In this document: piece after piece, positions 27,373-64,000 of the stretch
How the letters are laid out: each line of letters opens with the position of its first letter
Numbering within the stretch: the stretch's first letter is position 1
Assembly (NCBI GenBank): GCA_043228905.1
Contig: JBHGNT010000001.1
Coordinates: 20,956,001 to 21,020,000 of the forward strand
DNA from: Azolla caroliniana
Taxonomy: Eukaryota; Plantae; Polypodiophyta
DNA length: 64,000 nt
Reading direction: 5' to 3'
Made by a program: the position numbers and the translations under genes
Notes under the pieces: generated by a model
Databases searched by the model: none
What the model was told of the DNA's origin: nothing
Seen by the model: only the letters and a program-made list of their open reading frames with translations

Positions 27373-28429
27373 GACTGTAGATACCCGCAAATAGTCAAAC
27401 AAGGTAGATGAGAATTAGGGATAGAGACAGACACACACACCTTCACAATGCATAGAGAGAGAGAGAGAGAGGGATTAGTGACGAAGAGGGAAAGTGAGGA
27501 TAGACTTCCGCTCAAGGGAAGTTGTCCGTTCAAGCGTGCCAAAAGTGTTGTTGGGGTGGGGGGTGAAGCCTAGAATGGCTTCACCCCCCTCCCAAGGGGG
27601 TTATGATAGTGAGAGAGCTAGAGAGAGAGACAAATAGAAAAAGACACAATGTGAGAGGGGGAAAATGTATATCCATTAGATGCCCCATAAGGGGTTTATA
27701 TAATACATAATGTAACGGTAAATAATGACCATTACAAAAGAGACGACTGATACACTCTGTCACATGCACATAATTGTGCATGTGCTCACACATAATCATC
27801 CTCACATACTCATTTACTTTACACATACCCTTATGCCTCCCCGTATATTCTTACGGGTAACATACTGGGTCCTTGTTGTTGCATCTCTACTAAGGTTGCT
27901 TCGAGTTGTTGCATGCGTACCACTAGTTCCCCATGTTGTTGTTGCGTCTGTTGGTTTTCTAAGGAGATTTGTTGAAGATCCCCAACAACCGTTGATTTTC
28001 TTGTTCCAAAGCAAGGAACTTCTCTTTCAAGCATTGCAGCTTTGAGAAAACAGATTAATATTCTTGAGTGCTAACAGTGGCCATAGTATGAGAGAAAAGA
28101 GGAATAAGAGATTAGTATGAAGGGAGGGAGAAGTAATAAGATAAGGGAAGAGAAGGAAGGAGAGAAAAATCGGTTCAAACTGTCAGGAGCAGTACTAAGA
28201 CAGAGAAGTACTGTCAAGAACAATACTAAAACAGAGAAGGAATTAGTACTAAAAGATGAGGATTAGTACTAAGGGAGGTGTAGAACTCTCGAGAGAAGGA
28301 AAGAGTGAGTGAGTGAGAGAGAGAGAGAGAGAGAATGAGGATAACAAAAGATATATATTATGTTAAGGGAATATATAATAGTAGCTAGGAGACTTAAGAC
28401 TGGCGTTGAACCGATTTGGTTCGAAATAA

Positions 28430-29043
28430 TGCCTTGTGCCTCCTTTTATAGTGTTCTCAAGAGTACTCTTGAAGTTTCTAGAATGTTCGAGAATCTGGAA
28501 TATACATCAATTTTCTATAGTAAAACTTAAATGAAAATAATATTTTTTATATTACAACATATAGTCAAATGGTCAAGAGCTTGACCCATGTAACATAAGG
28601 TCATGGGTTTGAGTCTTGCCATATCATGACACACACACTCTCTCTCCCCTTCCCTCCCTCCCATGTACTCTCTATGTGTTTCAAGCTTTCCATTAAACCT
28701 TCGTTCTATTTTCTCTTGCTATCCGGCTAAGCCAATTGTGTCTACAAGCTTCCACACGTAAACCCTTCACAACGTTCATACACACTAGATGTGCATGAGT
28801 AGCTTTTTTTCCCCTAGAAAATATGCGTGAGGATAACGTTTTCAACATCGAAAAACTATTTTTTTAACACACATGATGTGTTAGTACAATGGTAAGGGTT
28901 GAAATTGTTGACATGGAAGTATAGGGTTTGAATCCTGCCCTATGCATGTAACATACATTTGAATATTTTCTTCATTTTCTTCATGCTTATTCAATTGGGT
29001 TTTTTATAGGTTTTTCACATAGTGTACAAATTACACTACAACA
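28430..29043. mobile_element. Mosaic of LTR relics (two G4-like pieces and a Copia-A-like LTR end)
   Basis: 28771-29043 resembles the G4 LTR (cacactagatgtgcatgag; ttttcac.tagtgtac.aa.tacactac.aca); ~28640-28770 resembles the Copia A LTR end (aagctttccattaaacct). Confidence 0.65.
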
Positions 29044-31276: not shown

Positions 31277-32872
31277 GCCTCGAAAACTCAGTACCGACTC
31301 GCACTGAGACTCACGTTTTGTGCAAGTCCCCAAACATCCAAATGGATCAAATTGACCTTGTTGTAGATCCGATTGTGCTCATTGGGGAATGGAAGCGGAT
31401 GTTGCTTTTTGAGTTGATACACTTTATAGATTTGGCCTTTACAACCACTGAATTTTGACAAGCTAAAAATGAAAAATTTCGACTGCATGCCATGAAGTCT
31501 CCGAAAGTTGATGTGGTTGAACCACTTGTGCCATAAGTTGATGTTTGAATCCACTTTCTGTCCTTTAGCATACACTGCGGTGCTGACATCATTGATGTCG
31601 AGGATAAACATTTGGACTTCTCTCATCCTTGTGCAATTAACCAACCGTCATTCTCGATTAAGCATCCATCTTGATTGAATCATACTTGCATGCCCTGGTC
31701 GACAATTTGTTTGACCGACACCAGGTTCTTGGTGATTGTTGACACAAGCAATATGTTCTTCATGGACCCTCTCTAACTGACATGAATCAAAGGAACATCT
31801 CCAATATGTTCAATAGTGTGGATGGTGTCATCACCGGTTTTCACGTACCCCAGCTGATCGGGCTTCTGTAAGCTCATGAACCATTCCTCATGGTTCATCA
31901 TATGGTTTGATGCTCCTGAATCGACATACCACACCTCTTCTTGTTTGGAGGTGCTTGCTTCCATTGAATTTGCACTATGCTTCATCACAAATATGGGATC
32001 ACCACCCAACCGTCCCATATCACAGGCACAGTGCAACCTTTGTCGACTTCCCAATTCGACCCTGCCCCCGGTTGTGCCTGATTCCGCTTTGCCCGAATTA
32101 ACCCGCTTCATCCAACATTCATCTTCTTTGTGGCCTTTCTTGTAGCAATACCAACAATCAATCGGCCTATCTTGTCGACTTGCGGCACTACTATGACTCC
32201 CCCCTACTAGTGGAGGGTCCTTGTGTTACGGGCATGACCATATAATATCCCGTGGTGAGAATAGTCGTAGTATTCTATACACGTTGTCGTGCCTTTCGGC
32301 TCCGGATCGTTGCGTGAGTCGGGTGGGAACCGCTGGGGTTTTGGACTAGGAAGAGGAGAGTTTTAAGGCTAATAAGAATATAAATATGTTGTAAGAAAGA
32401 GTTATAGCAAACTCGTGAATCCCACGAGTGTATTGTATTTGATTAATCAATATGAATATAAGAATATAAACTTCGGTTGAAAGAGAATGATATAGAATTC
32501 TCGTGAATCCCACGAGTATAGTTTATTAATTGGTGTTTTTTAGAAACATATCCAGTTTCCAAATATTTTTCACACACCTATTACATTGTGCTCCCCATCC
32601 TTATATAGTGATGGGAGAGACTAAGCATAGCTACATGCTTTTTTTCTAATATGTTCATGCACACTAAATGTGCATGTGATGCTTTTCTAATCCTTGCTTT
32701 TATTTGCTAAATATAGTGCTCATGCACGCTAGATGTGCATGAGTCACTTTTTAGTCGCTTGCGTTTTTCTATAAAATATTCACGCACTCTAAAAATACAT
32801 GATTTACCTTTTAATAAAGGTAGGCGCAAATAAAGCACTTATAGTTATTAAATCTATTTATAAAACACTAAA

Positions 32873-32945
32873 GATAAGGTAGCATAATGGTAAAGTTGAG
32901 GTTTGGCTACGTGGAGGTACAAGGTTCAAATCTTGCCCTATGCAC
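32873..32945 (+). promoter_or_regulatory. tRNA-like Pol III internal promoter in G4 LTR (second copy ~35254-35326)
   Basis: A box tagcataatgg 32880-32890, B box ggttcaaatct 32923-32933 (starts 43 nt apart), T-arm caag/cttg. Confidence 0.7.
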
Positions 32946-32998
32946 GTGATAAATATCTTGATTTTCTTATTTTATTTATTTATATGTAATTAAATCGG

Positions 32999-34627
32999 TT
33001 ATATTATTTTTACTTTTTCACGTAGTGTACGAAATACACTACGACACTCGCCCCCTCCGAACCCGCACATCCTCCGGTATGTGCCGAAGTTGCCGATGCT
33101 CGTTGTCTTCCCTTCATCCTCCGTTTGTCCCGCTATGTCAACTTTGTCTCTCCATTTTGAGTAGACCCATTCTTTCCACCCGAACCATTGTCGCCATCCG
33201 ATCCACCATATTCTTTGTTCATTCTTTGCATTGCCATGAGTGGTTGTCATGGTCCCTTGTGGTACTCTTGAGCATCTCGGTGTGTTGTCTCTCTCCACTC
33301 CGCGCTTGTCTTCCGTAGGTTCTACCCACGCGTCGATGTCGACCTCCGAATACGCGCTCGCTGTTAGGTCCTTGTGCGGCTTTAATGCATGCTTTATTTC
33401 TCGATGTTGTGCATGCGTCGTATTAGGCCGTAGCGCATGCTTCGTATTCCATCGTAGTGCATGCGCCGTATTACCCCGTAGTGCATACTTATTTTTGCAC
33501 CGTAGCGCGTGCTTCTTTTTGCGCCGTAGCGTGTGCTTCTCTTTACGCCGTAGCACGTGCTTCTTTTGGTGCCGTAGTGCGTGCTCCGTATTACATGCTT
33601 CTCCCATCGTAGACCCGACCTTCGCGTTGTCATGCTTTTGTTTACATCGGAATTTCAGACGGATCATCTTCCATCCGAACCGGCTTCCGACTTTACCTTC
33701 CTTGTTGCCACCTCCCGTCTCTCCGGTCTCACGTTGGTTCTCGGACACAACCGCCGAAGTCTCTAGAATTAGTGGGTAGGAATCCTCGGTATTATCATCT
33801 TCCGTTGTTTCACCCATAGCCATGTTCTCCTTGGCTATCTCTCCTTCGTATGCATCGGCTTCGACCTTCGTTTCGTTGCCGCCACTTTCCTTATCTTCGG
33901 TGTTATGTCGACACCCGGGCTCCAGTACCGAAGTCTCCGAAACAATGGTGAAGGAATCCCTTCGTTCGTGCTCATTTACTTTGTCTTCCTCGTTGCCCTT
34001 CCGGTCCTCCACTTTTCCACCGACACATTCCGTCTCTCCGGTCTCACGTTGGTGCACGGGCACAGCCGCCGAAGTCTCTGGAACCGGTGTGGGGATACCC
34101 TTTCGTCCTCGATCTTCCTCCTCCTCGTCCTTTGTTGGCCTCGACTTTGGTTCGGTTTTAAGCTCCCCTTCAATGTCGACTTGCGACTTTTCATGCATCT
34201 CCGAACCCTTCCGCATCAAGCTCTCCTTCGGTGGTAGTCGGTGGCCGCTTTTCACCCACTGTTGACCGCCGTTCGTGGACCATGTCCTCGTCCGCTTCGG
34301 TCTTAGATAGTCATATGCGTCTCGTATAGCTTCTTCAAAGGACTCCCACGTCGGGCTTTGTTGTTGTATCTCGTGGATTCTCTCTTGAAGCTCATCCGTA
34401 GCCACCCGGTTGAAAGATAACACTTGCAATCTTTCTGAGATACCATATCGCAACATCTCCATTTTGTAGTCACGTAGATAGCGTGACACGTCTTTTCCAT
34501 CGAATTGCCCGTTCTGTTGCACGAGCCGTTGTACTACTGTCGTGATCTCCGACATCTCGCGTTGTTCTTGTAGCATTCTCTCGAACATCATCATCATCAT
34601 GTTCATCGCCTCTTGTTGATTCTCCAT
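32999..34627 (-). CDS. Gag-derived 542-aa protein with acidic repeats and 9 KHALR-type octapeptides
   Basis: Open ORF starting just after the PBS; N-terminus (GQFDGKDVSRYL...TWESFE) aligns by eye with G6 Gag (GQFDGRNVTKFL...TWSEFE); stop lies inside the 3' LTR. Confidence 0.85.
   Translation of the reverse strand: MENQQEAMNMMMMMFERMLQEQREMSEITTVVQRLVQQNGQFDGKDVSRYLRDYKMEMLRYGISERLQVLSFNRVATDELQERIHEIQQQSPTWESFEEAIRDAYDYLRPKRTRTWSTNGGQQWVKSGHRLPPKESLMRKGSEMHEKSQVDIEGELKTEPKSRPTKDEEEEDRGRKGIPTPVPETSAAVPVHQRETGETECVGGKVEDRKGNEEDKVNEHERRDSFTIVSETSVLEPGCRHNTEDKESGGNETKVEADAYEGEIAKENMAMGETTEDDNTEDSYPLILETSAVVSENQRETGETGGGNKEGKVGSRFGWKMIRLKFRCKQKHDNAKVGSTMGEACNTEHALRHQKKHVLRRKEKHTLRRKKKHALRCKNKYALRGNTAHALRWNTKHALRPNTTHAQHREIKHALKPHKDLTASAYSEVDIDAWVEPTEDKRGVERDNTPRCSRVPQGTMTTTHGNAKNEQRIWWIGWRQWFGWKEWVYSKWRDKVDIAGQTEDEGKTTSIGNFGTYRRMCGFGGGECRSVFRTLREKVKII
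33371..33587. repeat. 24-bp coding tandem repeat x9
   Basis: EHALRHQK KHVLRRKE KHTLRRKK KHALRCKN KYALRGNT AHALRWNT KHALRPNT THAQHREI KHALKPHK. Confidence 0.9.
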
Positions 34628-36094
34628 CTCCTTGCCACCCGCCTTCGCGTCGGGTTCACCAACTGTGTCGTGCCTTTCGGCTCCGGATCGTTGCGTGAGT
34701 CGGGTGGGAACCGCTGGGGTTTTGGACTAGGAAGAGGAGAGTTTTAAGGCTAATAAGAATATAAATATGTTGTAAGAAAGAGTTATAGCAAACTCGTGAA
34801 TCCCACGAGTGTATTGTATTTGATTAATCAATATGAATATAAGAATATAAACTTCGGTTGAAAGAGAATGATATAGAATTCTCGTGAATCCCACGAGTAT
34901 AGTTTATTAATTGGTGTTTTTTAGAAACATATCCAGTTTCCAAATATTTTTCACACACCTATTACATTGTGCTCCCCATCCTTATATAGTGATGGGAGAG
35001 ACTAAGCATAGCTACATGCTTTTTTTCTAATATGTTCATGCACACTAAATGTGCATGTGATGCTTTTCTAATCCTTGCTTTTATTTGCTAAATATAGTGC
35101 TCATGCACGCTAGATGTGCATGAGTCACTTTTTAGTCGCTTGCGTTTTTCTATAAAATATTCACGCACTCTAAAAATACATGATTTACCTTTTAATAAAG
35201 GTAGGCGCAAATAAAGCACTTATAGTTATTAAATCTATTTATAAAACACTAAAGATAAGGTAGCATAATGGTAAAGTTGAGGTTTGGCTACGTGGAGGTA
35301 TAAGGTTCAAATCTTGCCCTATGCACGTGATAAATATCTTGATTTTCTTATTTTATTTATTTATATGTAATTAAATCGGTTATATTATTTTTACTTTTTC
35401 ACGTAGTGTACGAAATACACTACGACAACGTGGATAAGTGTGAGGGTTAAACAAAGAGTCTAAAGAAGGGGAGGATTACTTTTAATCCTCGGGATTGAGA
35501 CAACCCATGAGGCCAAGTGTGAACATGGCTGGGGGCCTTGAGAATTACTATAAATAAGAGGCCTAGCTACCCTCATTTGGGGATGCATTGACTACGTCGA
35601 GACTCTGTCCGTGAGTGGAACGACTCTTGTAGCAAGCGCGCTATCGTCCAGGTACGACTCGACGCCAAGGCGGTGGTATGGGACGCCGATCGAGGCTCGA
35701 GTCCGTCTCGATCCCTTCGCTCGGGGGTGGTCGGGTGGATCGGCACCCTTCTTTCTCTCTTTTCTCTCTATTCTTTCTAGATCTATCATTGATATATCCT
35801 TATTTTATGCTTACTTTAGTACCTAATCTCTAATATTTGGTATCAGAGCCTATGTACTAACGTTTCTTTTGGTTTTCTTTTTGTCTTCGCGTGGGATGGC
35901 GATTGATCGTTGTGCGGTCGCCTTCATGCAGACAAGGATTAGCGAAAGAACTTCGGTAAATTTTCCTTAATTTTTTATCTAATTTTTCTTCTCCCTTCTA
36001 TACATGTGTATACTTAATATGTAGTTTTTTTTTCATATATTCAATGATGTTGACGTGGTATTTAATTGGTTATCTTAAACGTTTACATATGTCC

Positions 36095-36340
36095 ACGAGG
36101 TCAATACCTCGTTTGACATATAAATCATATGTGATGAGTGTCGTATGCGTACGAGGTTACTACCTCAATTGCGTATTACGTTCACGAACATATGTTACGT
36201 TCGCGTACGAGGTCAATACCTCGATTCGTTCGAAATGATATGCGTTGGATTTACTATGCGTAAGAGGTCAATACCTCAATTGCGAATTACGCTTAACCTT
36301 ATTTTCGGATGTTTCGTGTGCGTAGAGGTATATGCCTCGA
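36095..36340. repeat. Five palindromic gaggt-N4-acctc motifs at ~56-bp period in the G5 5' leader
   Basis: Copies at ~36095, 36151, 36207, 36262, 36323. Confidence 0.85.
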
Positions 36341-37533
36341 TTAAGTATCCCGAATACATCATTGTTGGCTATATAAAAAAAACGATTCATTTAGTATACG
36401 CATATGTGGTCACTTATATACGTCTCTGATCGTATATATGTGATATATTGACATATGTGTATATTTTAGATTACGTGATTCATATCAAATGTTTTCCTAA
36501 TTGGGGAGAGGATTTTGGTGGCCGTCCTCACATTTTTGTGAGAATGGCGTTGTCACCATCCCTTTTATCAACAATTTTTATTGTTGAAATTCCCGTTGGT
36601 CACTTTGATCTTTCGTTACGTAACGAACCTCGTATAGCCAAAATGATGTTGAATACGTCGGGCTTGATCCACATCAAGTAGGGTCGCTCTAATGACACAC
36701 GTATCCAACATCTCCCCTCGTTACATGGATACGATGCCACCATGAGCTCGTTCTTACGAGCGCCATTCGTAATGACGTGACCATGTGATGGGCCACATGA
36801 GCCTACGAAGACACAAGGGCTCATTCGGCTTGACCATTAGGTTACACTTTGGCATATGCCATTGTACTTACGAGGCTTGAGGGTAGGTAGCGTACAACCA
36901 TAGTGGGTAATAAATGAGGGAGAAATAAGGCCACTTGACCTATATGTTTCTTTTAAAAAAAACATATAGGGGCAAATGCCTCGCATATCTCGAATACGCC
37001 TCAAACATTAAACATTCAAGACGCGCAATCTACTTGGTTGGCTCAAGTGTTTAATGTATTTGTCCTCGAGGTCTCGAGTTCAAATATGACCAACACCATA
37101 CAACATCGTTGATACATATGACTATAATACATGTTTAGACTTTAGGTCTAAGTGCACTTCGGGGTCCTCGTAATAGGACTTAAAGAGCCGAAACCACATA
37201 TGTGGGCACAGAAACATAGTTATTGTTAACATTTTTTTCGTGTATAAACTATTCATGACGCGAACATACATGGTTGAGCCTCGGGGAGCCGCCATGAAAA
37301 AAATCGATATAGAGATCAGGGAAAGGCATTCATTTGTCACCCCCATGGTTTTTAAAACACCTCTGTGTTACCATAGTAACCTGATCTTGAACCTCATCTC
37401 ATACGTCTAGAGGGGTATTGACGTGAGATCATGATATCGATTAATGTTTGCCCATGATATGTTTACACCACGACAAGATGTTATGACTATTTGTCTGACC
37501 TTATCTTATTTCTTTGCCAGAAATAATCATTCA

Positions 37534-41967: not shown

Positions 41968-44407
41968 CCATATAATATCCCGTGGTGAGAATTGTCGTAG
42001 TATTCTATACACGTGGATAAGTGTGAGGGTTAAACAAAGAGTCTAAAGAAGGGGAGGATTACTTTTAATCCTCGGGATTGAGACAACCCATGAGGCCAAG
42101 TGTGAACATGGCTGGGGGCCTTGAGAATTACTATAAATAAGAGGCCTAGCTACCCTCATTTGGGGATGCATTGACTACGTCGAGACTCTGTCCGTGAGTG
42201 GAACGACTCTTGTAGCAAGCGCGCTATCGTCCAGGTACGACTCGACGCCAAGGCGGTGGTATGGGACGCCGATCGAGGCTCGAGTCCGTCTCGATCCCTT
42301 CGCTCGGGGGTGGTCGGGTGGATCGGCACCCTTCTTTCTCTCTTTTCTCTCTATTCTTTCTAGATCTATCATTGATATATCCTTATTTTATGCTTACTTT
42401 AGTACCTAATCTCTAATACCTTGACTGTTGTCATGTCCGACATCAATCTTCTGCTCATTTTGGTCGTCATTCCTACAAGCCGACCCAACTCTCCATCCAC
42501 GTGTATAACATTTGGCTGTCAGTGGACATACTCCTTGTCTCCCCTGTGTGGTTCTCTTCAACTGATAGCATCGATTGAAGGTCAAAGGAGGGTGGTTTCT
42601 CTCTGGTGTAGATGGTCGTCCTGAATGGCCCGTATATCTACGCCAAGCCTCCCAGGAAAATATGAACCATTTCATCTTCGTCCACCGTCACGTTGATGGA
42701 ACACAATGCATCACAAATATCCTTTATTTTGGAGGTGTAGTCGGTCACTGACATGTCCTTTTGTTGGACTTTGTTCAACACTTGTTTCAACTACAATTTT
42801 TTGGTTGTTGTGCTCATAGCAGAAATCTTTTTCAGATTTTCCCACGCCTCTTTCGGTGTCTTGGCATCTCTGATATAGTCAAGCATTTGATCATGAACAC
42901 AAGACGTTAAGCAATAAAGCACCATACTTGCTGCCCGCTCCCAAGCCTGAAAGTCTTTGTGTGTCAACTTCAACGTTTCTTCATTTACTCCATCAATGTA
43001 ACTCTAGGAGCCGTGTCCTAACAAGTACTAGTGCATCTTGTACACCCAAGGTACGTAGTTGTTATACTCTAGCTTCTTAGTGGGCAGCAAGCTTCCCATG
43101 TTCTTGTCCATTCTGTTGATGATCAACTACCTTATACTTGTGGTCTTGTCTTTGTGTCAAATTGTCGGTTATAGACGATTAGTTCGAACCCTCGCACTCT
43201 AATACCATGTAAAGTTTGCGGAAGTTGACACATACAATCGGCTTAGCTGAATAGATAAACCACAATAATGGAAACACAGAGATAGAATCAAAACTAGAGA
43301 TTGAGATGAAGATAGTAATACAGAGATATACTTAACGCCAAAATAGAACACTAATTATCGTTTACAAAACAGTTGTCACCATACACAATGCTCAGAGAAC
43401 TGTTTTTATTGAAGACCTCAAGTACCTCTCATAAAGGTGGGGGTTGTCAATTCGGCTCATTCATGAGCACTTAATCCTACCGAACCTAATTATTGGGAAT
43501 GACACGCTAGTGTCCTAGTTGAGCTTGTCATCTCAAGACACATGAACATGTAGCTGGGTTCCTAGCTAAGTGCATCCTAGGTATGATAACCACTAGTGAA
43601 TTCCAATTCCAAGAATTCATTGAAGAAGCTTTAATCATGCGAACACATGCGTGACTGTCGATTCATTAGATACCCATGAACAAAGAATAAAGTTCCATCA
43701 TAACAAGCACTCCAAAGAAGCAACAATGAGCACCATGCAAAAGTGTTCCTTTGGCAAGAATTGGTTTGTGGGCTACCTTTCGTGATAGGTTTCAAATACC
43801 CAATTGCAAGGCCTAGATTCTTTACATGCCCAATTGCTATGGGAAATTGCATTGTTCAGTCCCCTTGTTCTGGGCATCATTAACGAAGGATGTTCTATCA
43901 CCTTGTAAACGGGTTGTCATTCAACTTTTTATCCCCACCATAGTGTAAGGTTGTTTTAGACTACTTTACATATCATGGAATGTGGTACAATTGGAGTCTG
44001 AGAAATGGGTTTTGTTTGATGGTCTCCAATAGGTACCACAAAAGAGGAGGGTCACTAGGGGAATTGATTGGGTAGTTCTCGTAGCACCAAAGCTCTCATA
44101 AGATCTCCTCCCCACTTTTCCTCTTTGGAAGTGTCAAAAATGTTTGCTTTGGTTTGGCTTGGTTTTTACTCCTGCTAAGAGAGAGAGAGAGAGAGAGAGA
44201 TGGTTTATTTATTTCCCTTTGTATATGACATATGTAGACATATGTATGTATTTCCCTTTCTCTTACTTTCTCGAGTATGTATGTATGTACACGCACGCAC
44301 GCACGCAGGGAGGGAGGGAGATATATATACATATGATATATGTATATATATATAATCACTGAAAGACACAAGAAGAAGAAAGAAAGAAAGAAAGAAAGGA
44401 GAGCGTA

Positions 44408-54650: not shown

Positions 54651-55163
54651 CTGATCCATCGAAACATACGTGAGTTCGACTTCATTGGAGAGGACACGGT
54701 GTCGTGAAGATCCGTCACTACGCGCAGATCGTGAGGCGGAACCGCCGGGGTTCTGGACCGGAAGGATTCAAAGTCGGTACAAGCTTTGGTGCAAGCTTTA
54801 GCGAGAAAGTACTTAAGATAGATTGGGAAAGAGAGAAGTTGAGATTAAATGATTGAGAGAGATTGATTGAACTTTTATCTTTAGATTTAAGAAACAAGTT
54901 ACACGATCAATTTGATAACGAATTTCTTCTTCTTAATTTCATAACTAAAAAAAAAACGCATTTTTTCTCCTCCCCCTTCCTTCTTTTATAGATGCTCTCA
55001 TGCATATGATGCATGTGAGGGTACAAGACATGCATAAAATGCATGTTTGCCATTTGGTGCTTATGTATTACATGTGGTGCATGATAACCATGTCACTCAC
55101 TTTAGCTCTCATGTATGAGAATTTACATGTAAAAGTACAATGATAGAAATATAAATTCAACTA

Positions 55164-55236
55164 AATGGCATGGCTTAATGGTAAGCCAATTGACCCCTAA
55201 CTCAGAGGTGCAAGGTTTGAATCCTTACTTGCCCTC
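55164..55236 (+). promoter_or_regulatory. tRNA-like Pol III internal promoter in G6 LTR (second copy ~62051-62126)
   Basis: A box tggcttaatgg 55171-55181; B box ggtttgaatcc 55214-55224 (ggttcgaatcc at 62104-62114); D-stem ggctt/aagcc, T-stem aagg/cctt. Confidence 0.75.
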
Positions 55237-55869
55237 CTTGTATATGTATATATGTATATATATTTATTTATCTAGTCATCGGACGCCGGTTCGCCGGATG
55301 CCGTCGGTTATCGGTGCCTCGTCGGATGCCGTCCGCCGCCTCGCCGTTGTCGGATGCCGGTCTCTCACCGGCGCCGGATGCCTTCGGATCACCGGCTCCA
55401 TCGTCGGTCTGGTTTTGGTTGGCCAAAACCCTTTAACAAGTAGCTAGCCCACCTCCACTCTTAGTTCAAGTTACCTTGAACTCTCTATGCTACACACATA
55501 GACACAAAGATAATATCTTTTGCTCTACCTTATATATGATGAGAGCCATATTTGTCGTGCCTATGTGGGATATCTCACAATTTTCTCTTTTCCTTTCACA
55601 AACTTTATACCCTCATATCTTGACATTTAGTTGTCCATTTCTCGTGTAATAAAGTGCATTCGAAAGCTCCATCATTTTGTACTTAGATATTAAATTTATT
55701 TAAAATGTTATCTTCACAATTATTGTATTATGTGATTCATACTCGATTTTGTACGTTTTATGGGATTTTCACACTATTGCCGAAAATCTTCACGACATCC
55801 ACCCCCACCAAACCGCACGTCCTCCGGTACGTGCCAAGAAGAGAGAAAGTGAGATTTCGGCTACGGTGA

Positions 55870-58800
55870 TCAATTAGATTCCTCCGTGTCTTCATTTACA
55901 TCCGCCCTATTAGGTTTATCGTTGAGGTGATCGAGGTCAAGATCCTTGTCTTGTCTTTTCTTGAAAATCTTTACTCTTTTTCCCGCAATGGGTACGACCA
56001 ACCTTGATCCGTCTAGTTCCGCAAGGTGGTATGTGGCATTATCGTTGACACTTGTCACCACATATGGCCCGAACCATCTTATTGCGAACTTCCTTGTTGT
56101 ATTATGTTGATTGCTAAGGGTGCTGTCGTAAACCAAAACCCAATCCCCTTCTTCAATCTTCTTGGGACGAAGTCGATGCGTGTTGTCGAATTGAACTTTG
56201 TTCTTTACTCGGGCTGCCTCCATCATCTTTCGCGCTTTTTCTAAATCTTTAGGTCTTCTTTCAAGTTACCTTATCCGCGCCGCTAATAACTCTTCTTGGC
56301 TCATCTCGTTCTCCCACGGTATCGCTACCCATGAGGCGATCGTCCTTTCGATGGGCATAATCGGCTTTTGTCCATACATAAGCTCCGTCGGCATATACCC
56401 TGTCACCGAGCTATGTGTCGTTCTATCGGCCCACAAGGCATATGGTAATAGTTGTGGCCAATTCCCGACTCGACCGTTGCATGCCCGTACGATGGCTTTA
56501 ACGATAGGTCCATGCCCTTGCTCGATCTTCCCATTCGCTTTCGGATTGTAGGCAGTTGTGAGGGAGAGCTTCACGCATAGTCTTTCGAAGAGCTCCGTCG
56601 CTTCGTGCACGTCCAACTCCCCTCGGTCGGCCACTATCTTCCCTACACATCCATATCGGCAAACAACCTCTTCAAGTAGAAATTTGCAAACGGCTGAAGT
56701 CGTCTTATTTGTCAAGGCTCTTCCTTCCACTTGATTTGTCAAGTCTTCCCTTGCCAACGCTAAGTACTTCATTTGTCCCACTCCCATTGGCATAGAGACC
56801 AGATCCACCATCCATTTGAAGTGTATGGTGAGTGGGTATGTCGGCTGTAACTCATCACGATGACGTATATTTGAATATATTTGGGAAGTTTCGCATGTGG
56901 ACACAAAATGGAGTACATCTTTGTACATGCTTGGCCACCGATACTTCTCCTTCAACTTTTCGAACGTCGCCCATGTTCCTCTATGACCTGCCCAAGCACT
57001 CTCATGGAATTCGGTCATCAGTGTCTCTTGCTCTTCTTTCTTTACCACCACTCGATGTGGTATTCCTGTCCTTCTTTTTGGATGTCGCCAAAGGAATCCT
57101 CCCTTCAAGAAGTATCGGTAAGCTTTCTTTCGGATTCGTAGGGCCTCCTCCTTTGTCAACGAAGCATCTGTCGTCAATGTTTTTAGGAATCTACCGATGA
57201 GTAACCACTCTCCTTCGCACTCGTTCTCGTTGAAGGCATGGATGGTTTGCTTGTCCTGGTCTTCCGCCGACAATCGAGCCATCTTGAAGAAGTCGAGGGC
57301 GACATCTTCATCTTCCGAAACCATGTTACTTCCATTTGAAAATCTTGCCCTCGACAGCATGTCAGCCATGGCGTTCTTCTTCCCTGCAATGTGACGGATC
57401 TCTGGGTTTAAAGACTTGATGTAGGCGATCCACCTTAGCATAGCAAGATCTGGGGTCGCACATCCCAAGACCATTCCGAGAATTGGGAGACAATCTGTCT
57501 CTATTATCACTTCTGATCCGATAAGGTAATCTTTGTCTGTCTTCACTACCGACACAATACCCCAAAGTTCCCGCTTGACTTGGGCATATCTTTGTTGCCG
57601 TTCGCTGAGAACCTTTGCTCCGAACCGGACGGCATATCGCGCATTATCTTCACCTTCTTAATTGATGACCCACCCGATTCCGGTTGGGCTCGTATCTACG
57701 GTCACGTAAATTGGTTTCCCTTCGGCATAGTCGGCCTTCCTTAGTGCCGGAGCTTCAAGAAACAGTTTCTTTAATCTTCGCATCGCATTTGTGTGCTCAT
57801 CTCGCCATTCGAACTTCATTCTTTTCTTTAGTAGTTCATATAATGGTTCGGCGACATGAGCGTAGTGAGGAATCCATATATGATAAAATGCGCACGCTCC
57901 AAGGAACCTTCGAAACTCCGTTTGGTTTTCGCATTCTTCTTTCATGTCTTGGATTGCGTTCACTTTGGATGGCGAGGGCTTCCGGCCATATGCTCCACAT
58001 AAGTGACCTACCACCAAGATCTCCGGTTGCCCGAATGCGGATTTTTCTCCCGAAAATGTCAAATTCGCATCTTCGAGCCTTTGAAGCACCTTCTCGCAAT
58101 CTTTCATATGATCCGCAACGAACTTTCTACAACCTTCCTTATCTTTCGATTCATCTTTCTCCTCATCCGAACATCCTTTTATCGGAATGTCATCCAAGAA
58201 TGGCATCGTGATGTCCAGGATGCAATCCTTCAAGACTTTATTCATGGCATTCACCATATGAGCCACCGAGTTCGTTGTGCCTTGGGGTAAGGTACACATC
58301 CGCACAAGCCCGATCGGAGTCCTCATGGTTGTAATGTCCTGACTATCGATCGCCAATTGGAATTGGTCATATCCGGAGTAGAGATCGGCAATGGAGTAGA
58401 TGGACCGGCCCGCAAATGCTTCGGCAAATTTGTCCACGCTCGGACCGATTCCGGCATTTTGAATTGTCACCTTGTTGACGGGTTGAAGATCTTGGATGAA
58501 TCGCAATGATCCATTCTTCTTCGGCACCGTGAACCACCTATTGGAATAAGGAGCATTCGACGGTTCTAGAATTCCCATACTCACCTTCTCCTTTAAGAGC
58601 TCGATCAGCTTCGGAAGGTGTGCTCTCGGAACCGGTATCGGTTTCAAATTCCAAGGCACATGAGGCACCGTGAAGATCACCATCGGCTCTATAACCTTTG
58701 GGTCGGCGCATCCGATTTCTCGTGGGAAGAATGCGAAAGCCTTCCCATGTCTCTCAAGCATATCGCGAAACATTCGCTCCTCTTCAGGGAGAAGGAAATC

Positions 58801-61528
58801 CTCCTTTCCAACTCGTAGCTTCCCCTTCGTCTCTTTGGTGAAGACATGACCTATCTTCTTCGGATCTCTCAAGCTTGGATCGTTAGCGATTTCCTTCATC
58901 TTTTGCCAGCTATCTTCCGGTAGCGGAACCGCAACTGGCTTGATCTTCTTATCCACCGTTTTATATTTCGTGTTGATGTCAGCTTCCTTCATCGAAATGC
59001 CACGACGGTATTCATCGATGATAGCGTACATGTTGACGGAGTTAACCGAAATCACGCGTTGGTTGTGAAGATAGCTCAAGTCCACGACGTCCTCGATTTC
59101 GCCGATGGTGTCATTAAATGAGGCTTCTTCCATAATATGAGTCACAAACTCTCCTTCTTCTATTATGTTTTCTTCTTTTAGCATCTTCTCAAATTCTTGT
59201 ATCCGACGCTTGTGCTTCTTGTCGGGTAGTACTAGTTTACATGCGCCACTAGGTGTGACACATGTTGCTTCTCCTTGCAATCCACACACTCTTCTTTCTT
59301 GTGGGGTCTTGTGATTGCTCGGACTATTTGTGCCCCATGCTTCAATAGTCCGCTCTAAAAATCCGAGGATTCGCCTCCGAGACTATCTCGATTCCTTTCA
59401 TGATTGGCTCGCACCGTTAGGAATTGGACCGATCTTTGGTTGTCAAGACTCTTTATTCGTGCGAAGGCTACTCCATTATCGAACACTTTGGTCTCCATCC
59501 GAGATGATGTGATATAAGGTTGCCCTAGGATGACAGGATGCGACACCGATTCTTGTACGAAGAAGTGTTGTTCCATCTCCACATCCCCGATCGTGACTTT
59601 GATATTGGGACAAGCTCCGTACAAGTCCTCCGTAGACTTTGTTGCCGAGCGAATCTTCCATCTGTGGTTTGTATTGATTGGCCATCTTCCTTTTTTGTAG
59701 AAGTTGGTTGACATGAGGTTGATCTCCGAGCCGTGGTCGATCAAGGCTACCACGGTCTCTTTCTTCTCCCCGATCTTCACCGGCGTCTCCGTTGTCGCTC
59801 GTGCCCAATGAGGTCGAGTATAGTGGCTGTCCACCATATGTTCATCGACTTCGTCTCTTGCCATCGTTATGGCATTTGTTTTTGCTTTTTGTGGCTTCTC
59901 TTCTTCCTCGTCTGATTGTTGTCTCTTTCTCTTTACAAGGTCCACGATCGTGTCATGGAACTCCTTCGTAATGCCCAGCAATTCCCTCAAGGACAGTTAC
60001 GTGGCTATCAAGAACTCGTTCTTCGAGAATCTTCTTTAGGTCCGTTGTCTGCTCTATGTCCGACTTTAGCTTATAGGTAGGTATAGTCCTTGTCCTTCGA
60101 GCGGGGTCTTCGACACCAACCTTCACGGGCCGAACCGTTTCTTCAACTCGTATGCTCGGCTCCCCTTTTCGGCTTGATTCTCGTTCCTCCGTTTGTAAAG
60201 GTCGACTCGTCTCCGCATCGTCTTTCTTTTTCGGGTTCCTTGTTTCATGTCTTTTTGATGGACCTTGCTCTTCTATTCTCTTTCTCTTTTCTTCGACGAA
60301 CACCTCGTGGTTGTCACACATCACCTCTCCGAGTATGGTGTTGTCGTCCACCGGATCCGACCACCCGGTTATGCTTTGCATGCTTCGGTCTGCAAGCTCT
60401 ACCTCATTCGATGTGACTTTTTCCTTCTTCTCATATTCGAGAACGGAAGTCCAAAACTTTGCTCCCGCTCTAGCAGCTTCAGTCTTGTCTTTCCCGACTC
60501 TTATTCCGGCCGACGCAGCATATTGCATTGCATCCACATGAATCGCATCGGCATCCTCCATAGATTTCTTCATTCCTCCTCTTCTGAAATTCACCCGTAG
60601 GGGTCTTCTAGTCTCGCTTGAGCAGATCATGTTGTCCTCTATGTATACGATATTTTGTCGAATCGCCTCTCGAAGGCTCACACAATCCTTTATGGCATCT
60701 AAAGGGTTCTTTTCCTTTAGGGCCCCGACGATTCATGTTGGCTAGCGTGACCTTCTCAAACTTCTTCACTAGCTCTTCGATGATGTCGTCATCAATCTTC
60801 TTTTCTTCCACGTTACTTTGTCTTGGCGGCTTAGCTACTTTCAGCGGACTTGCTTTGTCCGTGGTAGTCGATCCCGTCAAGTCGGTGTCATCAACCCATT
60901 GGCGACGCTTGTCGAGCCTATTGCATGCCCGCTTCACTGCGATCCAATCCGCTATGAGCCCATTTGCTTGGGTATCATCTTCGAGAAGAATCCCCAACTC
61001 CCGTCTATCCTTTATGTCCACGGCCTTCAAGAAGTACAAAGTCTTGTCCTCTTCAAGCAACACTTGGTCCGTATTGGGGAGACGACTAAACATCTGGTCG
61101 AATTCGTCATACACCCTCGAGACGCTCATCTTCTTATTCTTCTTCTCTATCCACTTCATCAGGGCATGTCGAGTCATCCTCGCTGAGTCTTCAGTCACGA
61201 ACTCCGCTAGTATTGTTTTCTCGAACTCGGACCATGTTGTCTTACCTTCTTGAAGCTCAATGACGCGTCTTTGGATGTTGTTGGCGACAACTCTCTTGAA
61301 GCTTGCGATTTGACGTTCCTCGGACATGTCCCTCTGATTCATCTCCCTTCTATATGCATAAAGGAACTTCGTAACGTTCCTTCCATCGAATTGGCCCTCG
61401 AGCTCTACGACACGATCGACAGCCTTCTCCACGCTCGCGTCATTGTCCCGAGATCTCATCATTTGCTCGACGATTAGCATCATCCTTTCGAGCTCTCCCG
61501 CTTGGTTGCTTGAGGACGCCATCTCCAA
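55870..61528 (-). pseudogene. G6 gag-pol with frameshifts and stops
   Basis: gag 61528-59953, protease LIDHGSEIN 59990-59355, RT FLDD 59289-57658, RH/INT 57555-56266, GPY module 56226-55870; no chromodomain seen. Confidence 0.92.
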
Positions 61529-64000
61529 GTATTAATCTCGACTTGATCCTTCCTATTGCCTCTTTCACGTCGGGTTCACCACTTAATTATGTCGTGAAGA
61601 TCCGTCACTACGCACAGATCGTGTGGCGGAACCGCCGGGGTTCTGGACCGGAGGATTCAAAGTCGGTACAAGCTTTGGCGCAAGCTTTAGTGAGAAAGTA
61701 CTTAAGATAGATTGGGAAAGAGAGAAGTTGAGATTAAACGATTGAGAGAGATTGATTGAACTTTTATCTTTAGATTTAAGAAACAAGTTACATGATCAAT
61801 TTGATAACGAATTTCTTCTTCTTAATTTCATAACAAAAAAAAACGCGTTTTTTCTCCTCCCCCTTCCTTCTTTTATAGATGCTCTCATGCATATGATACA
61901 TGTGAGGGTACAAGACATGCATAAAATGCATGTTTGCCATTTGGTGCTTATGTATTACATGTGGTGAATGATAACCATGTCACTCATTTTAGCTCTCATG
62001 TATGAGAATTTACATGTAAAAGTACAATGATAGAAATATAAATTCAACTAAATGGCATGGCTTAATGATAAGCCACCAATTGACTCCTAACTCGGAGGTA
62101 CAAGGTTCGAATCCTTACTTGCCCTCCTTGTATATGTATATGTATATATATTTATATATTTATTTATCTAGTCACCGGATGTCGTCGCCTTACCGGCGTC
62201 GGATGCCGTCACCGGATTGCGGTCTCTCACCAGCGCCGGATCACCGGCTCCATCGTCGGTCCGGTTTTGGTTGGCCAAAACCCTTTAACGAGTAGCTAGC
62301 TCACCTCCACTCTTAGTTCAAGTTACCTTGAACTCTCTATGCTCCACACATAGACACAAAGATAATATCTTTTGCTCTACCTTATATATGATGAGAGCCA
62401 TATTTGTCGTGCGTATGTGGGATATCTCACAATTTTCTCTTTTCCTTTCACAAACTTTATACTCTCATATCTTGACATTTAGTTGTCCGTTTCTCGTGTA
62501 ATAAAGTGCATTCGAAACCTCCATCATTTTGTACTTAGATATTAAATTTATTTAAAATGTTATCTTCACAATTATTGTATTATGTGATTCATACTCGATT
62601 TTGTACGTTTTATGGGATTTTCACACTATTGCCGAAAATCTTCACAACGGTCGCGGACAAAGTGGTAGTGCCCCTCAATGTGCTTGGTCTTGGCGTGGAA
62701 GACGGGGTTCTTCACAAGTTAGATGCTGCTAAGGTTGTCGTAGTAGATCGTCGTTGGAGCGGACACCTCCACCTGTAGATCCTTGAGTAGCCTCTTGAGC
62801 CAAATGGCGTCGCATGTCACAACAGTCGCTCCTCGATACTCAGCCTCCGTGCTCGACAATGCAACTGTTGGCTGCTTTTTACTGCACCATGCGATCGCCA
62901 CACTTCCCAATGAAAATGCATATCCAGATGTTGATCTGCGATCGCTGGCATTTCCGGCCCAATCGACATCCGTGTAACCGACTAACTGCTTGGCTATGCT
63001 TGCCCGATATAGCAACGCCCTATCCTTAGTGCCGCGGACGTAGGGCAATATCCTTTGCGCACACTGAAGGTGTTCGGCCATGGGCTGCGACATAAATTGA
63101 CTAATCAGGCCGACCGGGTAACTAAGATCCGGCCGGGTGATCGTCAAATAAATTAAGCTTCCTACGATCTGTCGAAACCGTGTCGGGTTGCACGCTTGTT
63201 CTGAATCTCGGCGAAGCTTGGCGTTTCTATCTAGAGGAGTTAAGATGGACTTACAGTTTTCCATCACAAACTTGAAAAGCATACTCAACACGTTATGTCG
63301 TTGGTTGATCAGTATGCCTTCGGGGGTGTGGATCACTTCGATCCCTAGGAAGTAATGAAGATCCCCTAGGTTCTTCATGTTGAATGATGCCGCGAATTTG
63401 GACTTTAAGTGGCCAATTTCATCTAGGTTGGCGCCGACGATGTCTAAATCATTAACATAAAGTAAAATACTAATTGTTCCATGTCGACCTTGCCTGACAA
63501 ACAATGAAGAGTCTGATTTGGACGTCGCAAACCCCATCCGATGTAGGTGCTTCGTGATCTTTGCGTTCCACCCTCGTGGGGCTTGTTTTAGTCCGTAGAG
63601 GGATTTCTTCAGTCAGCACACCGCCGAGGTGTTCTTTCTAGACTTAAATCTGAGGGGCTGTACCATGTACATTTGCTCCTCAAGTTCTCCTTGCAGGAAC
63701 GCATTCTTTACATCCATCTGATGTAAATGCCACCCCTTTATTGCGGCTACTACAAGTAGAACACAGACGGTTGTCATCTTCGCGATAGGCGCAAAGGTCT
63801 CATCGTAGTCAATGCCATGATGTTGTGCGTATCCCTTAGCCACTAACTGGGCCTTGTAGCGGTTGATAGAGCCATTGGTGTTGTACTTGACCTTGTACAC
63901 CCACCTACATCCACTCGACTTTACACCCTTCGGGGCGTGAACTAGGTCCCATGTTTCATTTTCTACTAATGTGTGCATCTCCTCCTCCATTGCGGCATGC

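What the first reader, a model, noticed from the sequence alone, without database searches (positions are those of the whole stretch)
32873..32970. tRNA-derived Pol III module built into the LTRs of a young Gypsy-group element
Seen: a consensus A box (TAGCATAATGG) and a B box (GGTTCAAATCT) 43 nt apart as in tRNA genes, a T-arm, partial acceptor pairing (ataagg/ccctat) and a T4 run at ~32962, in both LTRs, antisense in U3. Established: A/B boxes recruit TFIIIC, tDNAs can act as chromatin barriers, and Cassandra TRIMs carry 5S Pol III promoters in their LTRs. Inference: a tRNA-type analogue of Cassandra that makes a ~90-nt RNA or insulates the LTR promoter from surrounding heterochromatin. I know of no description of this for these elements.
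Basis: partly seen in the sequence, partly recalled or inferred. Interest (0 to 1): 0.85.

Follow-up and report, generated by a model that had tools for sequence, protein, structure and literature searches.

The report
Backward-facing tRNA promoter inside retrotransposon LTRs
Several families of plant jumping genes carry, backwards in their end repeats, a worn copy of a tRNA gene that has kept its two promoter boxes but lost its tRNA shape, and it likely serves as a docking site for the tRNA-gene machinery beside the element's predicted own promoter, although neither binding nor transcription has been shown.

Summary
The A box (32880-32890) and B box (32923-32933) are real, lie in both LTRs, are antisense, and beat shuffles against an independent tRNA profile (14.1 and 13.3 bits; best of 20 shuffles 9.3). 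It is not a tRNA: ARAGORN and Rfam miss it, the stems barely pair, and the T4 at 32962 is copy-specific. The element is a young, 3.1-kb, non-autonomous Phygy-like Gypsy. The module recurs in a 7.9-kb gag-pol family whose Gag is only 32-36% identical, and more weakly in a self-primed chromovirus LTR. Across six copies 10 of 11 box positions are invariant against 18 of 61 others. Against function: two sister LTRs lack it, one copy has deleted it, 5 of 10 copies carry C56T, and among close copies boxes vary as much as flanks. The tRNA analogue of Cassandra is already published (Helenus, 2024). This module differs: it faces away from the element, in long LTRs with a TATA-like box, so it cannot make the template RNA. 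Best reading (0.45): an optional TFIIIC docking site. Earlier scan notes report antisense tRNA relics in other genomes' Gypsy tails, not in LTRs.

The parts
32285..35427 (-). Element A: 3,143-bp non-autonomous Phygy-like Gypsy element (LTR, PBS, gag-like remnant, repetitive filler, PPT, LTR), inserted in the 5' LTR of a chromovirus
   Evidence: TSD ACGT at 32281-32284 and 35428-35431; empty site in the other chromovirus LTR near 42011
32285..33046 (-). 3' LTR of A (762 bp, TG...CA)
   Evidence: 1 difference from the 5' LTR
34666..35427 (-). 5' LTR of A
32873..32945 (+). tRNA-derived module, antisense to the element; boxes kept, stems decayed
32880..32890 (+). A box
   Evidence: T8, G10, A14, G18, G19 invariant in 6 of 6 copies compared
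32923..32933 (+). B box; core 32924-32932 fits GWTCRANNC
   Evidence: consensus as written in PMC4228148; across contigs 32928 reads G in 65-84% and 32927 reads T in 19-26% of depth
32962..32973 (+). T runs (T4 at 32962, copy-specific; T4 at 32970) in an AT-rich tail; possible Pol III terminator
35254..35326 (+). Copy of the module in the 5' LTR (A box 35261, B box 35304)
32601..32608 (-). TATA-like box of the LTR (predicted Pol II promoter; same place in the 5' LTR at 34982)
   Evidence: motif only; start site not mapped
34648..34661 (-). Primer-binding site; naming it tRNA-Trp is recalled, no call returned the host tRNA
   Evidence: fits the dominant Phygy PBS type
33047..33058 (-). Polypurine tract
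34290..34624 (-). Gag-like N-terminal remnant at the start of a 575-codon open frame; no Pfam hit
   Evidence: 35% identical to ORF1 of element B, 72-78% to A-type loci
28774..29043 (-). Fragment C: U3 end of an older A-type LTR (69% identical to A) with the module at 28875-28947; C56T
54700..62646 (-). Element B: 7.9-kb Phygy-like element with gag, PR, RT, RH and IN in a broken frame, no chromodomain hit, TSD ACGG, same PBS
55164..55235 (+). Module in the 3' LTR of B, antisense, about 175 nt upstream of a TATA-like box; C56T
   Evidence: 16.1 bits
62051..62125 (+). Module in the 5' LTR of B; intact B box, G19A and a 3-nt insertion
   Evidence: 22.3 bits
28181..28631 (-). LTR E of a chromovirus-like element with a self-priming signature (28167-28178 is the reverse complement of 28406-28417)
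   Evidence: its RT is 47% identical to the window's chromovirus RT and 25% to B
28555..28627 (+). tRNA-like module at the U3 end of LTR E, antisense; weaker evidence
   Evidence: pattern match; 7.1 bits, within shuffle range; second copy in L074 scores 12.7 bits; alignment

Best explanation
The stretch is a worn tRNA-derived sequence built backwards into the LTRs of Phygy-like Gypsy elements, and its A and B boxes likely serve as an optional docking site for the Pol III factor TFIIIC just upstream of the element's predicted Pol II promoter, where bound factors would keep that promoter open or shielded. SHOWN: tRNA derivation; antisense position in both LTRs; presence in A-type and B-type families; retention of boxes and spacing while stems, the middle arm and the terminator position drift; absence from a sister group. 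INFERRED: capture, once, in the ancestor of the A and B LTRs, probably by a SINE or tRNA-gene insertion into a 3' LTR that was then copied to both ends at each cycle; selection on the boxes; TFIIIC binding; a product-independent chromatin effect. Any RNA made (about 95-100 nt in A-type copies) would be a by-product.
For: Independent tRNA HMM: A 14.1/13.3, B 22.3/16.1, L080 26.9, L093 22.7 bits; a true tRNA scores 29.0; shuffles reach at most 9.3. Six copies (A3, C, L074, B3, L080, L093): 10 of 11 box positions invariant against 18 of 61 other module positions, Fisher p=2e-4. Three orthologous A-type copies: 10 of 11 box positions against 7 of 19 between the boxes and 15 of 40 downstream, p=0.007. 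A and B Gag share 32-36% identity. At E<=0.05 the A LTR matches B-type LTRs only at a 21-nt U5 motif (4 of 4) and a 20-nt stretch over the B box (B5, L080). Module present in 4 of 4 informative A-type LTRs and 4 of 6 B-type LTRs. Contigs of 4 coded organisms cover the module in LTR context; the listed loose ends look like LTR variants, one keeping the A box with a different spacer; the share running on into unlike sequence is 0. The first T4 lies 29-31 nt after the B box in A-type copies, 14, 151, 189 and 211 nt after it in B-type copies, and beyond the LTR in E, which points to a DNA site rather than a defined RNA. Barrier, insulator and nucleosome effects of Pol III complexes are reported, mainly in yeast (PMC4228148, passages).
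Against: No binding or transcription data. The B-box cytosine that TFIIIC needs is T in 5 of 10 module copies (C, B3, L093, L074 A-type, E in the window) and in 19-26% of contig depth; two other CpGs, at 32910 and 32945, are not among the listed variants (40 of 43 rows shown). Among contigs at least 80% alike, boxes are not better kept: 2 of 11 box positions vary against 11 of 62 other module positions, and the module (13 of 73 places) varies as much as its flanks (10 of 83, 12 of 69) (counted by hand). Two complete sister LTRs with the same PBS (L091, L096) have no module. L160 has deleted both boxes and L059 has shrunk to about 116 nt. Shared boxes between A and B would also arise from two separate tRNA or SINE captures; Gag fragments do not show A and B to be sisters. 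The six copies are not independent. In yeast, Pol III complexes can also repress nearby Pol II promoters, so the sign of any effect is unknown.
Confidence: 0.45

Rival explanations
1. Neutral passenger: old SINE heads or tRNA pseudogenes landed in U3 of a few master elements and are copied along with the LTR; antisense copies are simply the tolerated ones.
For: AT-rich, (TA)n- or (TTTA)n-like tails follow the module in A and B. Sister families lack it, one copy deleted it, and C56T is common. No conservation peak among close copies. Kojima notes that 'not a few' Repbase LTRs hold tRNA-like parts and proposes SINE insertion as their origin.
Against: Boxes outlast the spacer in orthologous A-type copies (10/11 against 7/19). 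No flanking direct repeat of 7 nt or more in 6 of 8 copies, and only AT-rich 7-8-mers in the other two. A profile of the module finds no copy outside these LTRs in 91 kb. The same orientation and side of the TATA-like box are seen in three families.
Confidence: 0.32
2. A functional short Pol III RNA (about 95-100 nt in A-type LTRs), antisense to U3 of the genomic RNA, that regulates the element or acts as a tRNA-like decoy.
For: Intact boxes in both LTRs of the young copy; a T4 lies 29-31 nt after the B box in 4 of 4 A-type copies; foamy viruses make Pol III RNAs from their U3 (PMC3993851, passages).
Against: No conserved fold (z -0.96 for A), the spacer decays, and the terminator position is not conserved in B or E.
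Confidence: 0.14
3. An RNA-level second primer-binding site: the antisense copy in U3 of the genomic RNA pairs with the primer tRNA and bridges the RNA ends, as in Ty3 and HIV-1.
For: Orientation and position fit. Ty3 has part of its PBS in U3 (PMC5371799, passages), and a U3 sequence of HIV-1 binds the primer tRNA (as summarised in PMC9757044, passages).
Against: The module's 3' stem matches the primer's 3' end, read from the PBS, at only 3-5 of 12 positions, and the longest shared run is 4-6 nt. The E element carries a module but has a self-priming signature.
Confidence: 0.06
4. A Cassandra/Helenus-type internal promoter that makes the element's template RNA.
For: A and B boxes in both LTRs, with PBS and PPT.
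Against: It points away from the internal region in the 5' LTR; the elements are 3.1 and 7.9 kb, against 311-1263 bp for Helenus; a TATA-like box is present.
Confidence: 0.03

Closest known systems
Helenus / TRIMp3 (Kojima 2024, PMC10886601; main text parts 1-5 of 6 read, supplement passages seen)
   Same: tRNA-derived stretch in both LTRs; A and B boxes kept while tRNA structure is lost; PBS and PPT; SINE insertion proposed as origin; one plant case (Selaginella).
   Different: Helenus are non-coding TRIMs of 311-1263 bp; the module is sense in the two supplement entries seen and is proposed to make the template RNA. Here it is antisense, in LTRs of 450-1150 bp with a TATA-like box, in gag- or gag-pol-bearing elements, and C56 is often lost.
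Cassandra (5S-bearing TRIM; as described in PMC10886601; the original paper was not read)
   Same: Pol III promoter captured in plant LTRs.
   Different: 5S-type promoter that drives the element's RNA; here tRNA type, facing outward, with no Rfam 5S hit.
Phygy, non-chromovirus Ty3/gypsy (Neumann 2019, PMC6317226; passages and one supplement row)
   Same: 4-bp NCGN TSD, tRNA-Trp-type PBS, size of B inside 7656-9968 bp, no extra domain.
   Different: No tRNA-like LTR module in the passages seen; A is a 3.1-kb non-autonomous derivative; RT placement against REXdb not tested.
Foamy-virus U3 Pol III microRNA cassettes (PMC3993851; passages)
   Same: An autonomous LTR element with Pol III transcription units in U3.
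   Different: Those make structured microRNA precursors and were shown to be expressed; here no conserved hairpin and no expression data.
Ty3 bipartite PBS (PMC5371799; passages) and HIV-1 U3 tRNA-binding motif (PMC9757044; passages; primary papers not held)
   Same: tRNA-complementary sequence in U3 of the genomic RNA.
   Different: Those match the primer tRNA; this module does not match the primer's 3' end.
Yeast tDNA and ETC (extra-TFIIIC) sites (PMC4228148; passages)
   Same: B-box sites that act through bound factors: barrier, insulator, nucleosome phasing, Ty targeting, repression of nearby Pol II.
   Different: Chromosomal sites in yeast, not carried in an LTR; activity here is untested.

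Membership tests
Helenus / TRIMp3 | tRNA-like sequence with A and B boxes in both LTRs | tested here: met
Helenus / TRIMp3 | Short, non-coding TRIM (up to about 1.3 kb) | tested here: not met
   A is 3,143 bp with a gag-like remnant; B is 7.9 kb with gag-pol
Helenus / TRIMp3 | Module oriented to transcribe the element's template RNA | tested here: not met
   antisense in every copy that carries it; sense in the Helenus entries seen
Helenus / TRIMp3 | PBS and PPT between the LTRs | tested here: met
Helenus / TRIMp3 | Pol III transcription | not testable with these tools
   no raw RNA reads were available
Cassandra | 5S rRNA-derived sequence in the LTR | tested here: not met
   no Rfam hit
tRNA gene | Cloverleaf recognised by ARAGORN or Rfam RF00005 | tested here: not met
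   positive control L096 found
SINE (recent insertion) | Target-site duplication around head and tail | tested here: not met
   none in 6 of 8 copies, AT-rich 7-8-mers in 2
SINE (recent insertion) | Simple-repeat or A/T-rich tail | tested here: inconclusive
   AT-rich tails in A and B, none in E
SINE (recent insertion) | Free copies outside the LTRs | tested here: inconclusive
   none in 91 kb or among listed loose ends (24 rows shown, 233 not shown); no genome held
Phygy (non-chromovirus Ty3/gypsy) | 4-bp TSD of type NCGN | tested here: met
   ACGT for A, ACGG for B; definition
Phygy (non-chromovirus Ty3/gypsy) | tRNA-Trp PBS | tested here: inconclusive
   PBS found and conserved; its isotype name is recalled, and a search for the host tRNA found none
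Phygy (non-chromovirus Ty3/gypsy) | Size 7.7-10 kb, no extra polyprotein domain | tested here: met
   B: 7,947 bp; Pfam shows RT, RH, IN and weak PR and gag, no chromodomain; A is a shorter derivative
Phygy (non-chromovirus Ty3/gypsy) | RT/RH/IN phylogeny with reference Phygy elements | not tested
   no REXdb references on hand; named relatives are from Riccia, Adiantum, Calypogeia and Chara
TR-GAG (element A) | Non-autonomous LTR element retaining gag and lacking enzymes | tested here: inconclusive
   no pol; only about 110 residues resemble Gag, with no Pfam hit; term as used in PMC13570524
Tcn1 chromovirus (element E) | Self-priming site in place of a tRNA PBS | tested here: met
   12-nt complementarity; clade feature
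Tcn1 chromovirus (element E) | Phylogenetic placement and chromodomain | not tested
   only pairwise RT identity; the 3' part of E was not found in the window

The most novel reading that the evidence does not exclude
Two unrelated Gypsy lineages of a non-seed plant (Phygy-like and Tcn1-like) have each captured a tRNA-derived Pol III promoter and keep it back to back with their own Pol II promoter, carrying a host chromatin barrier inside the LTR as a portable anti-silencing device, and possibly as a self-made landing site for integration.
Probability: 0.25. Interest if true: 0.75.

Novelty: new variant of a known kind. Interest (0 to 1): 0.45.

Why it matters
If the boxes are bound, an LTR retrotransposon would carry its own tRNA-gene-type chromatin boundary in thousands of copies. 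That would be a cis-acting way to resist silencing, and it would scatter TFIIIC sites through a large plant genome. Sister families and copies with and without the module give a natural comparison. If the boxes are not bound, this is a SINE or tRNA relic amplified inside LTRs, which matters mainly for repeat and tRNA annotation. The general idea of tRNA-like sequence in LTRs is already in print.

Tried and rejected
No whole genome is held. Expression: no RNA holder listed; the one guessed RNA run laid (X23) covered 9 of 30 bins and none of the module; this says nothing about expression. The run X20 is probably DNA. Scans of viral contigs for the PBS pattern (42 stretches; taken for chance or phage matches and not examined further for elements), for the host primer tRNA (31 stretches, 0 tRNAs), for the module pattern (0) and for RT relatives (0 of 54) gave nothing. 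A scan of prokaryote genomes gave 33 stretches, none with Gag similarity or the tRNA. The metagenome scan stopped at 120 stretches; I kept 15 as this lineage by PBS context or shared record prefix and dropped 105 as chance. L044, L100 and L146 (A-type) break off before the module position; L056, L085, L147 and L153 are too short; L066 has none in 617 nt. BLAST of the B and E modules against phages gave only weak hits (E 0.06-9), on tRNA-Asn for B and on tRNA-Thr, Met, Val or unrelated genes for E, so the isotype is not settled; by eye the loop reads CTT in L080/L093 and TGT in E. The module profile R1 did not find module E. Rejected: functional tRNA; recent SINE with TSD; template-RNA promoter; copy of the primer tRNA. 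Two primary HIV-1 papers were not held. No tree was built because Gag fragments were short and unrooted.

Full report
Setting. The window is a nest of LTR retrotransposons. Named relatives of the RT studied here come from Riccia, Adiantum, Calypogeia and Chara, so the host is likely a non-seed land plant; earlier scan notes guess moss or fern, and I did not resolve this. No whole genome is held.

The element. The finding lies in element A, 32285-35427, on the minus strand. Its 762-bp LTRs differ at one site; it has a 4-bp TSD (ACGT), a PBS at 34648-34661 and a PPT at 33047-33058, and it sits in the 5' LTR of a chromovirus whose other LTR shows the empty site. It has no pol. A 575-codon open frame begins with about 110 Gag-like residues and continues as repetitive filler, with no Pfam hit. 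Element B (54700-62646) has the same PBS, the TSD ACGG, and gag, PR, RT, RH and IN without a chromodomain hit. Neumann et al. 2019 (PMC6317226; passages and one supplement row) define Phygy by a 4-bp NCGN TSD, a mostly tRNA-Trp PBS and 7656-9968 bp. B fits, and A looks like a non-autonomous relative. The name Trp for this PBS is recalled; I could not retrieve the host tRNA. RT placement was not tested.

The observation. The A box starts at 32880 and the B box at 32923; both recur at 35261-35314. They are antisense and about 265 nt upstream of a TATA-like box, so U3 is inferred. I built a sequence-only HMM from 34 tRNAs called by ARAGORN in the fetched loci; most came from three phage records picked through weak BLAST hits of the B and E modules, not of A. 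The four best window hits are the modules of B (22.3, 16.1 bits) and A (14.1, 13.3), above the best hit of all 20 shuffles (9.3); C (6.5) and E (7.1) fall within the shuffle range; L080 scores 26.9 against 29.0 for a true tRNA. tRNA derivation is therefore real. tRNA structure is not: there is no ARAGORN or Rfam call, T stems pair 2-4 of 5 and A/B-type acceptors 0-4 of 7, and folding of A is unremarkable. The T4 at 32962 is broken in 95-99% of contig depth in four runs, though other T runs lie close by.

Distribution. They come from a few short-read assemblies, may be collapsed repeats, and are not independent hosts. The module is in 4 of 4 informative A-type LTRs (A3, A5, C, L074) and 4 of 6 B-type LTRs (B3, B5, L080, L093). 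L160 has lost both boxes in a deletion of about 145 nt, judged from 20 nt on the far side, and L059 has shrunk to about 116 nt. A third group with the same PBS lacks the module in 2 of 2 complete LTRs (L091, L096). Eight LTRs of four other families in the window have none. Contigs of four coded organisms cover family A with the module in place; coverage is higher over the B-box arm than over the AT-rich flanks in all four runs, and in one run the A-box side is poorly covered (depth is not copy number). LTR E (28181-28631) belongs to a chromovirus-like element with a 12-nt self-priming signature. It has a tRNA-like module in the same orientation, 16 nt from its U3 end, with a second copy in L074 (12.7 bits). 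E is the weaker case, and the A/B profile does not find it.

Conservation. A and B Gag are 32-36% identical, and the module-less group is about as far from both. At E<=0.05 the A LTR matches B-type LTRs only at a U5 motif and over the B box. Across six copies 10 of 11 box positions are invariant against 18 of 61 others (p=2e-4). In three orthologous A-type copies the counts are 10 of 11 against 7 of 19 in the spacer (p=0.007). The copies are related, so these p values are generous. Against this: among contigs at least 80% alike, 2 of 11 box positions vary at 15% or more against 11 of 62 other module positions, and module and flanks vary alike (13/73, 10/83, 12/69; hand counts from 40 of 43 rows). 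The key B-box cytosine is T in 5 of 10 copies and in 19-26% of depth. CpG decay after insertion can explain some of this, since B3 has T and its twin B5 has C, but a subfamily with fixed T56 is not excluded.

How it likely works. What is kept is what a protein reads on DNA: two boxes at fixed spacing (44 nt from T8 to G53 in 7 of 8 A/B-type copies). What an RNA would need is not kept: stems, spacer and terminator position. The module cannot make the template RNA because it points outward. It does not match the primer's 3' end (3-5 of 12 positions), and E has a self-priming signature, which argues against a Ty3- or HIV-like second primer site. I therefore favour an optional TFIIIC docking site back to back with the Pol II promoter (0.45), over a neutral relic (0.32), a functional short RNA (0.14), a primer bridge (0.06) and a Helenus-type promoter (0.03). 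Binding, transcription and any chromatin effect are inferred from yeast work (PMC4228148, passages), which also reports repression of nearby Pol II promoters.

Comparison and novelty. That paper also says that 'not a few' Repbase LTRs contain tRNA-like parts but analysed only short TRIMs, so long elements of this kind may already sit in Repbase undescribed. Foamy viruses transcribe Pol III RNAs from U3 (PMC3993851). Searches for an antisense A/B-box module in LTRs of long plant elements found nothing relevant in their listings: 25 of 418 listed; 0; 3; 4; 0; 0; the library lacks most subscription papers and Repbase was not searched. Earlier scan notes describe antisense tRNA relics behind pol in Gypsy elements of other genomes (unchecked), and look-ups for this LTR found nothing. 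Verdict: a real feature and a new variant of a known kind, with function unproven; interest 0.45.

Noticed in passing
L096:297-947 and 1150-1224: A complete module-less Phygy-type LTR (followed by ACGC) has a true tRNA-Arg(CCG) gene about 200 nt beyond its U3 end, facing away, the same geometry as the built-in module. One case only; it may hint at insertion near tRNA genes.
   Followed up: partly
window 28181-28631 and L074:1-152: LTR of a self-primed, Tcn1-like element with its own antisense tRNA-like module at the U3 end and no T4 before the LTR end, so any transcript would run out of the LTR.
   Followed up: partly
L160:330-466; L059: B-type LTR with both boxes deleted; B-type LTR shrunk to about 116 nt between a PBS and a PPT.
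   Followed up: partly
L074:1375-1594: An A-type LTR end inserted in opposite orientation about 31 nt inside another A-type LTR.
   Followed up: no
window 32999-34726 (-): A 575-codon frame stays open from the Gag-like start through duplicated and tandem-repeat filler, across the PPT and into the 3' LTR; no Pfam hit.
   Followed up: partly
window 32800-32830: A small palindrome (TACCTTT-TAAT-AAAGGTA) upstream of the module is one of the best-covered parts of the LTR across four runs.
   Followed up: no
window 37035-37090: Weak tRNA- or SINE-head-like stretch, sense, in the long leader of the chromovirus; 2.4 bits, not above shuffles.
   Followed up: no
window 35836-37435: The chromovirus has a 1.6-kb leader with repeated GAGGTCAATACCTC palindromes.
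   Followed up: no
window 55270-55420 and 55530: B-type LTRs have a GC-rich CCGGATG repeat block behind the module and a second TATA-like box nearer the U3 end.
   Followed up: no
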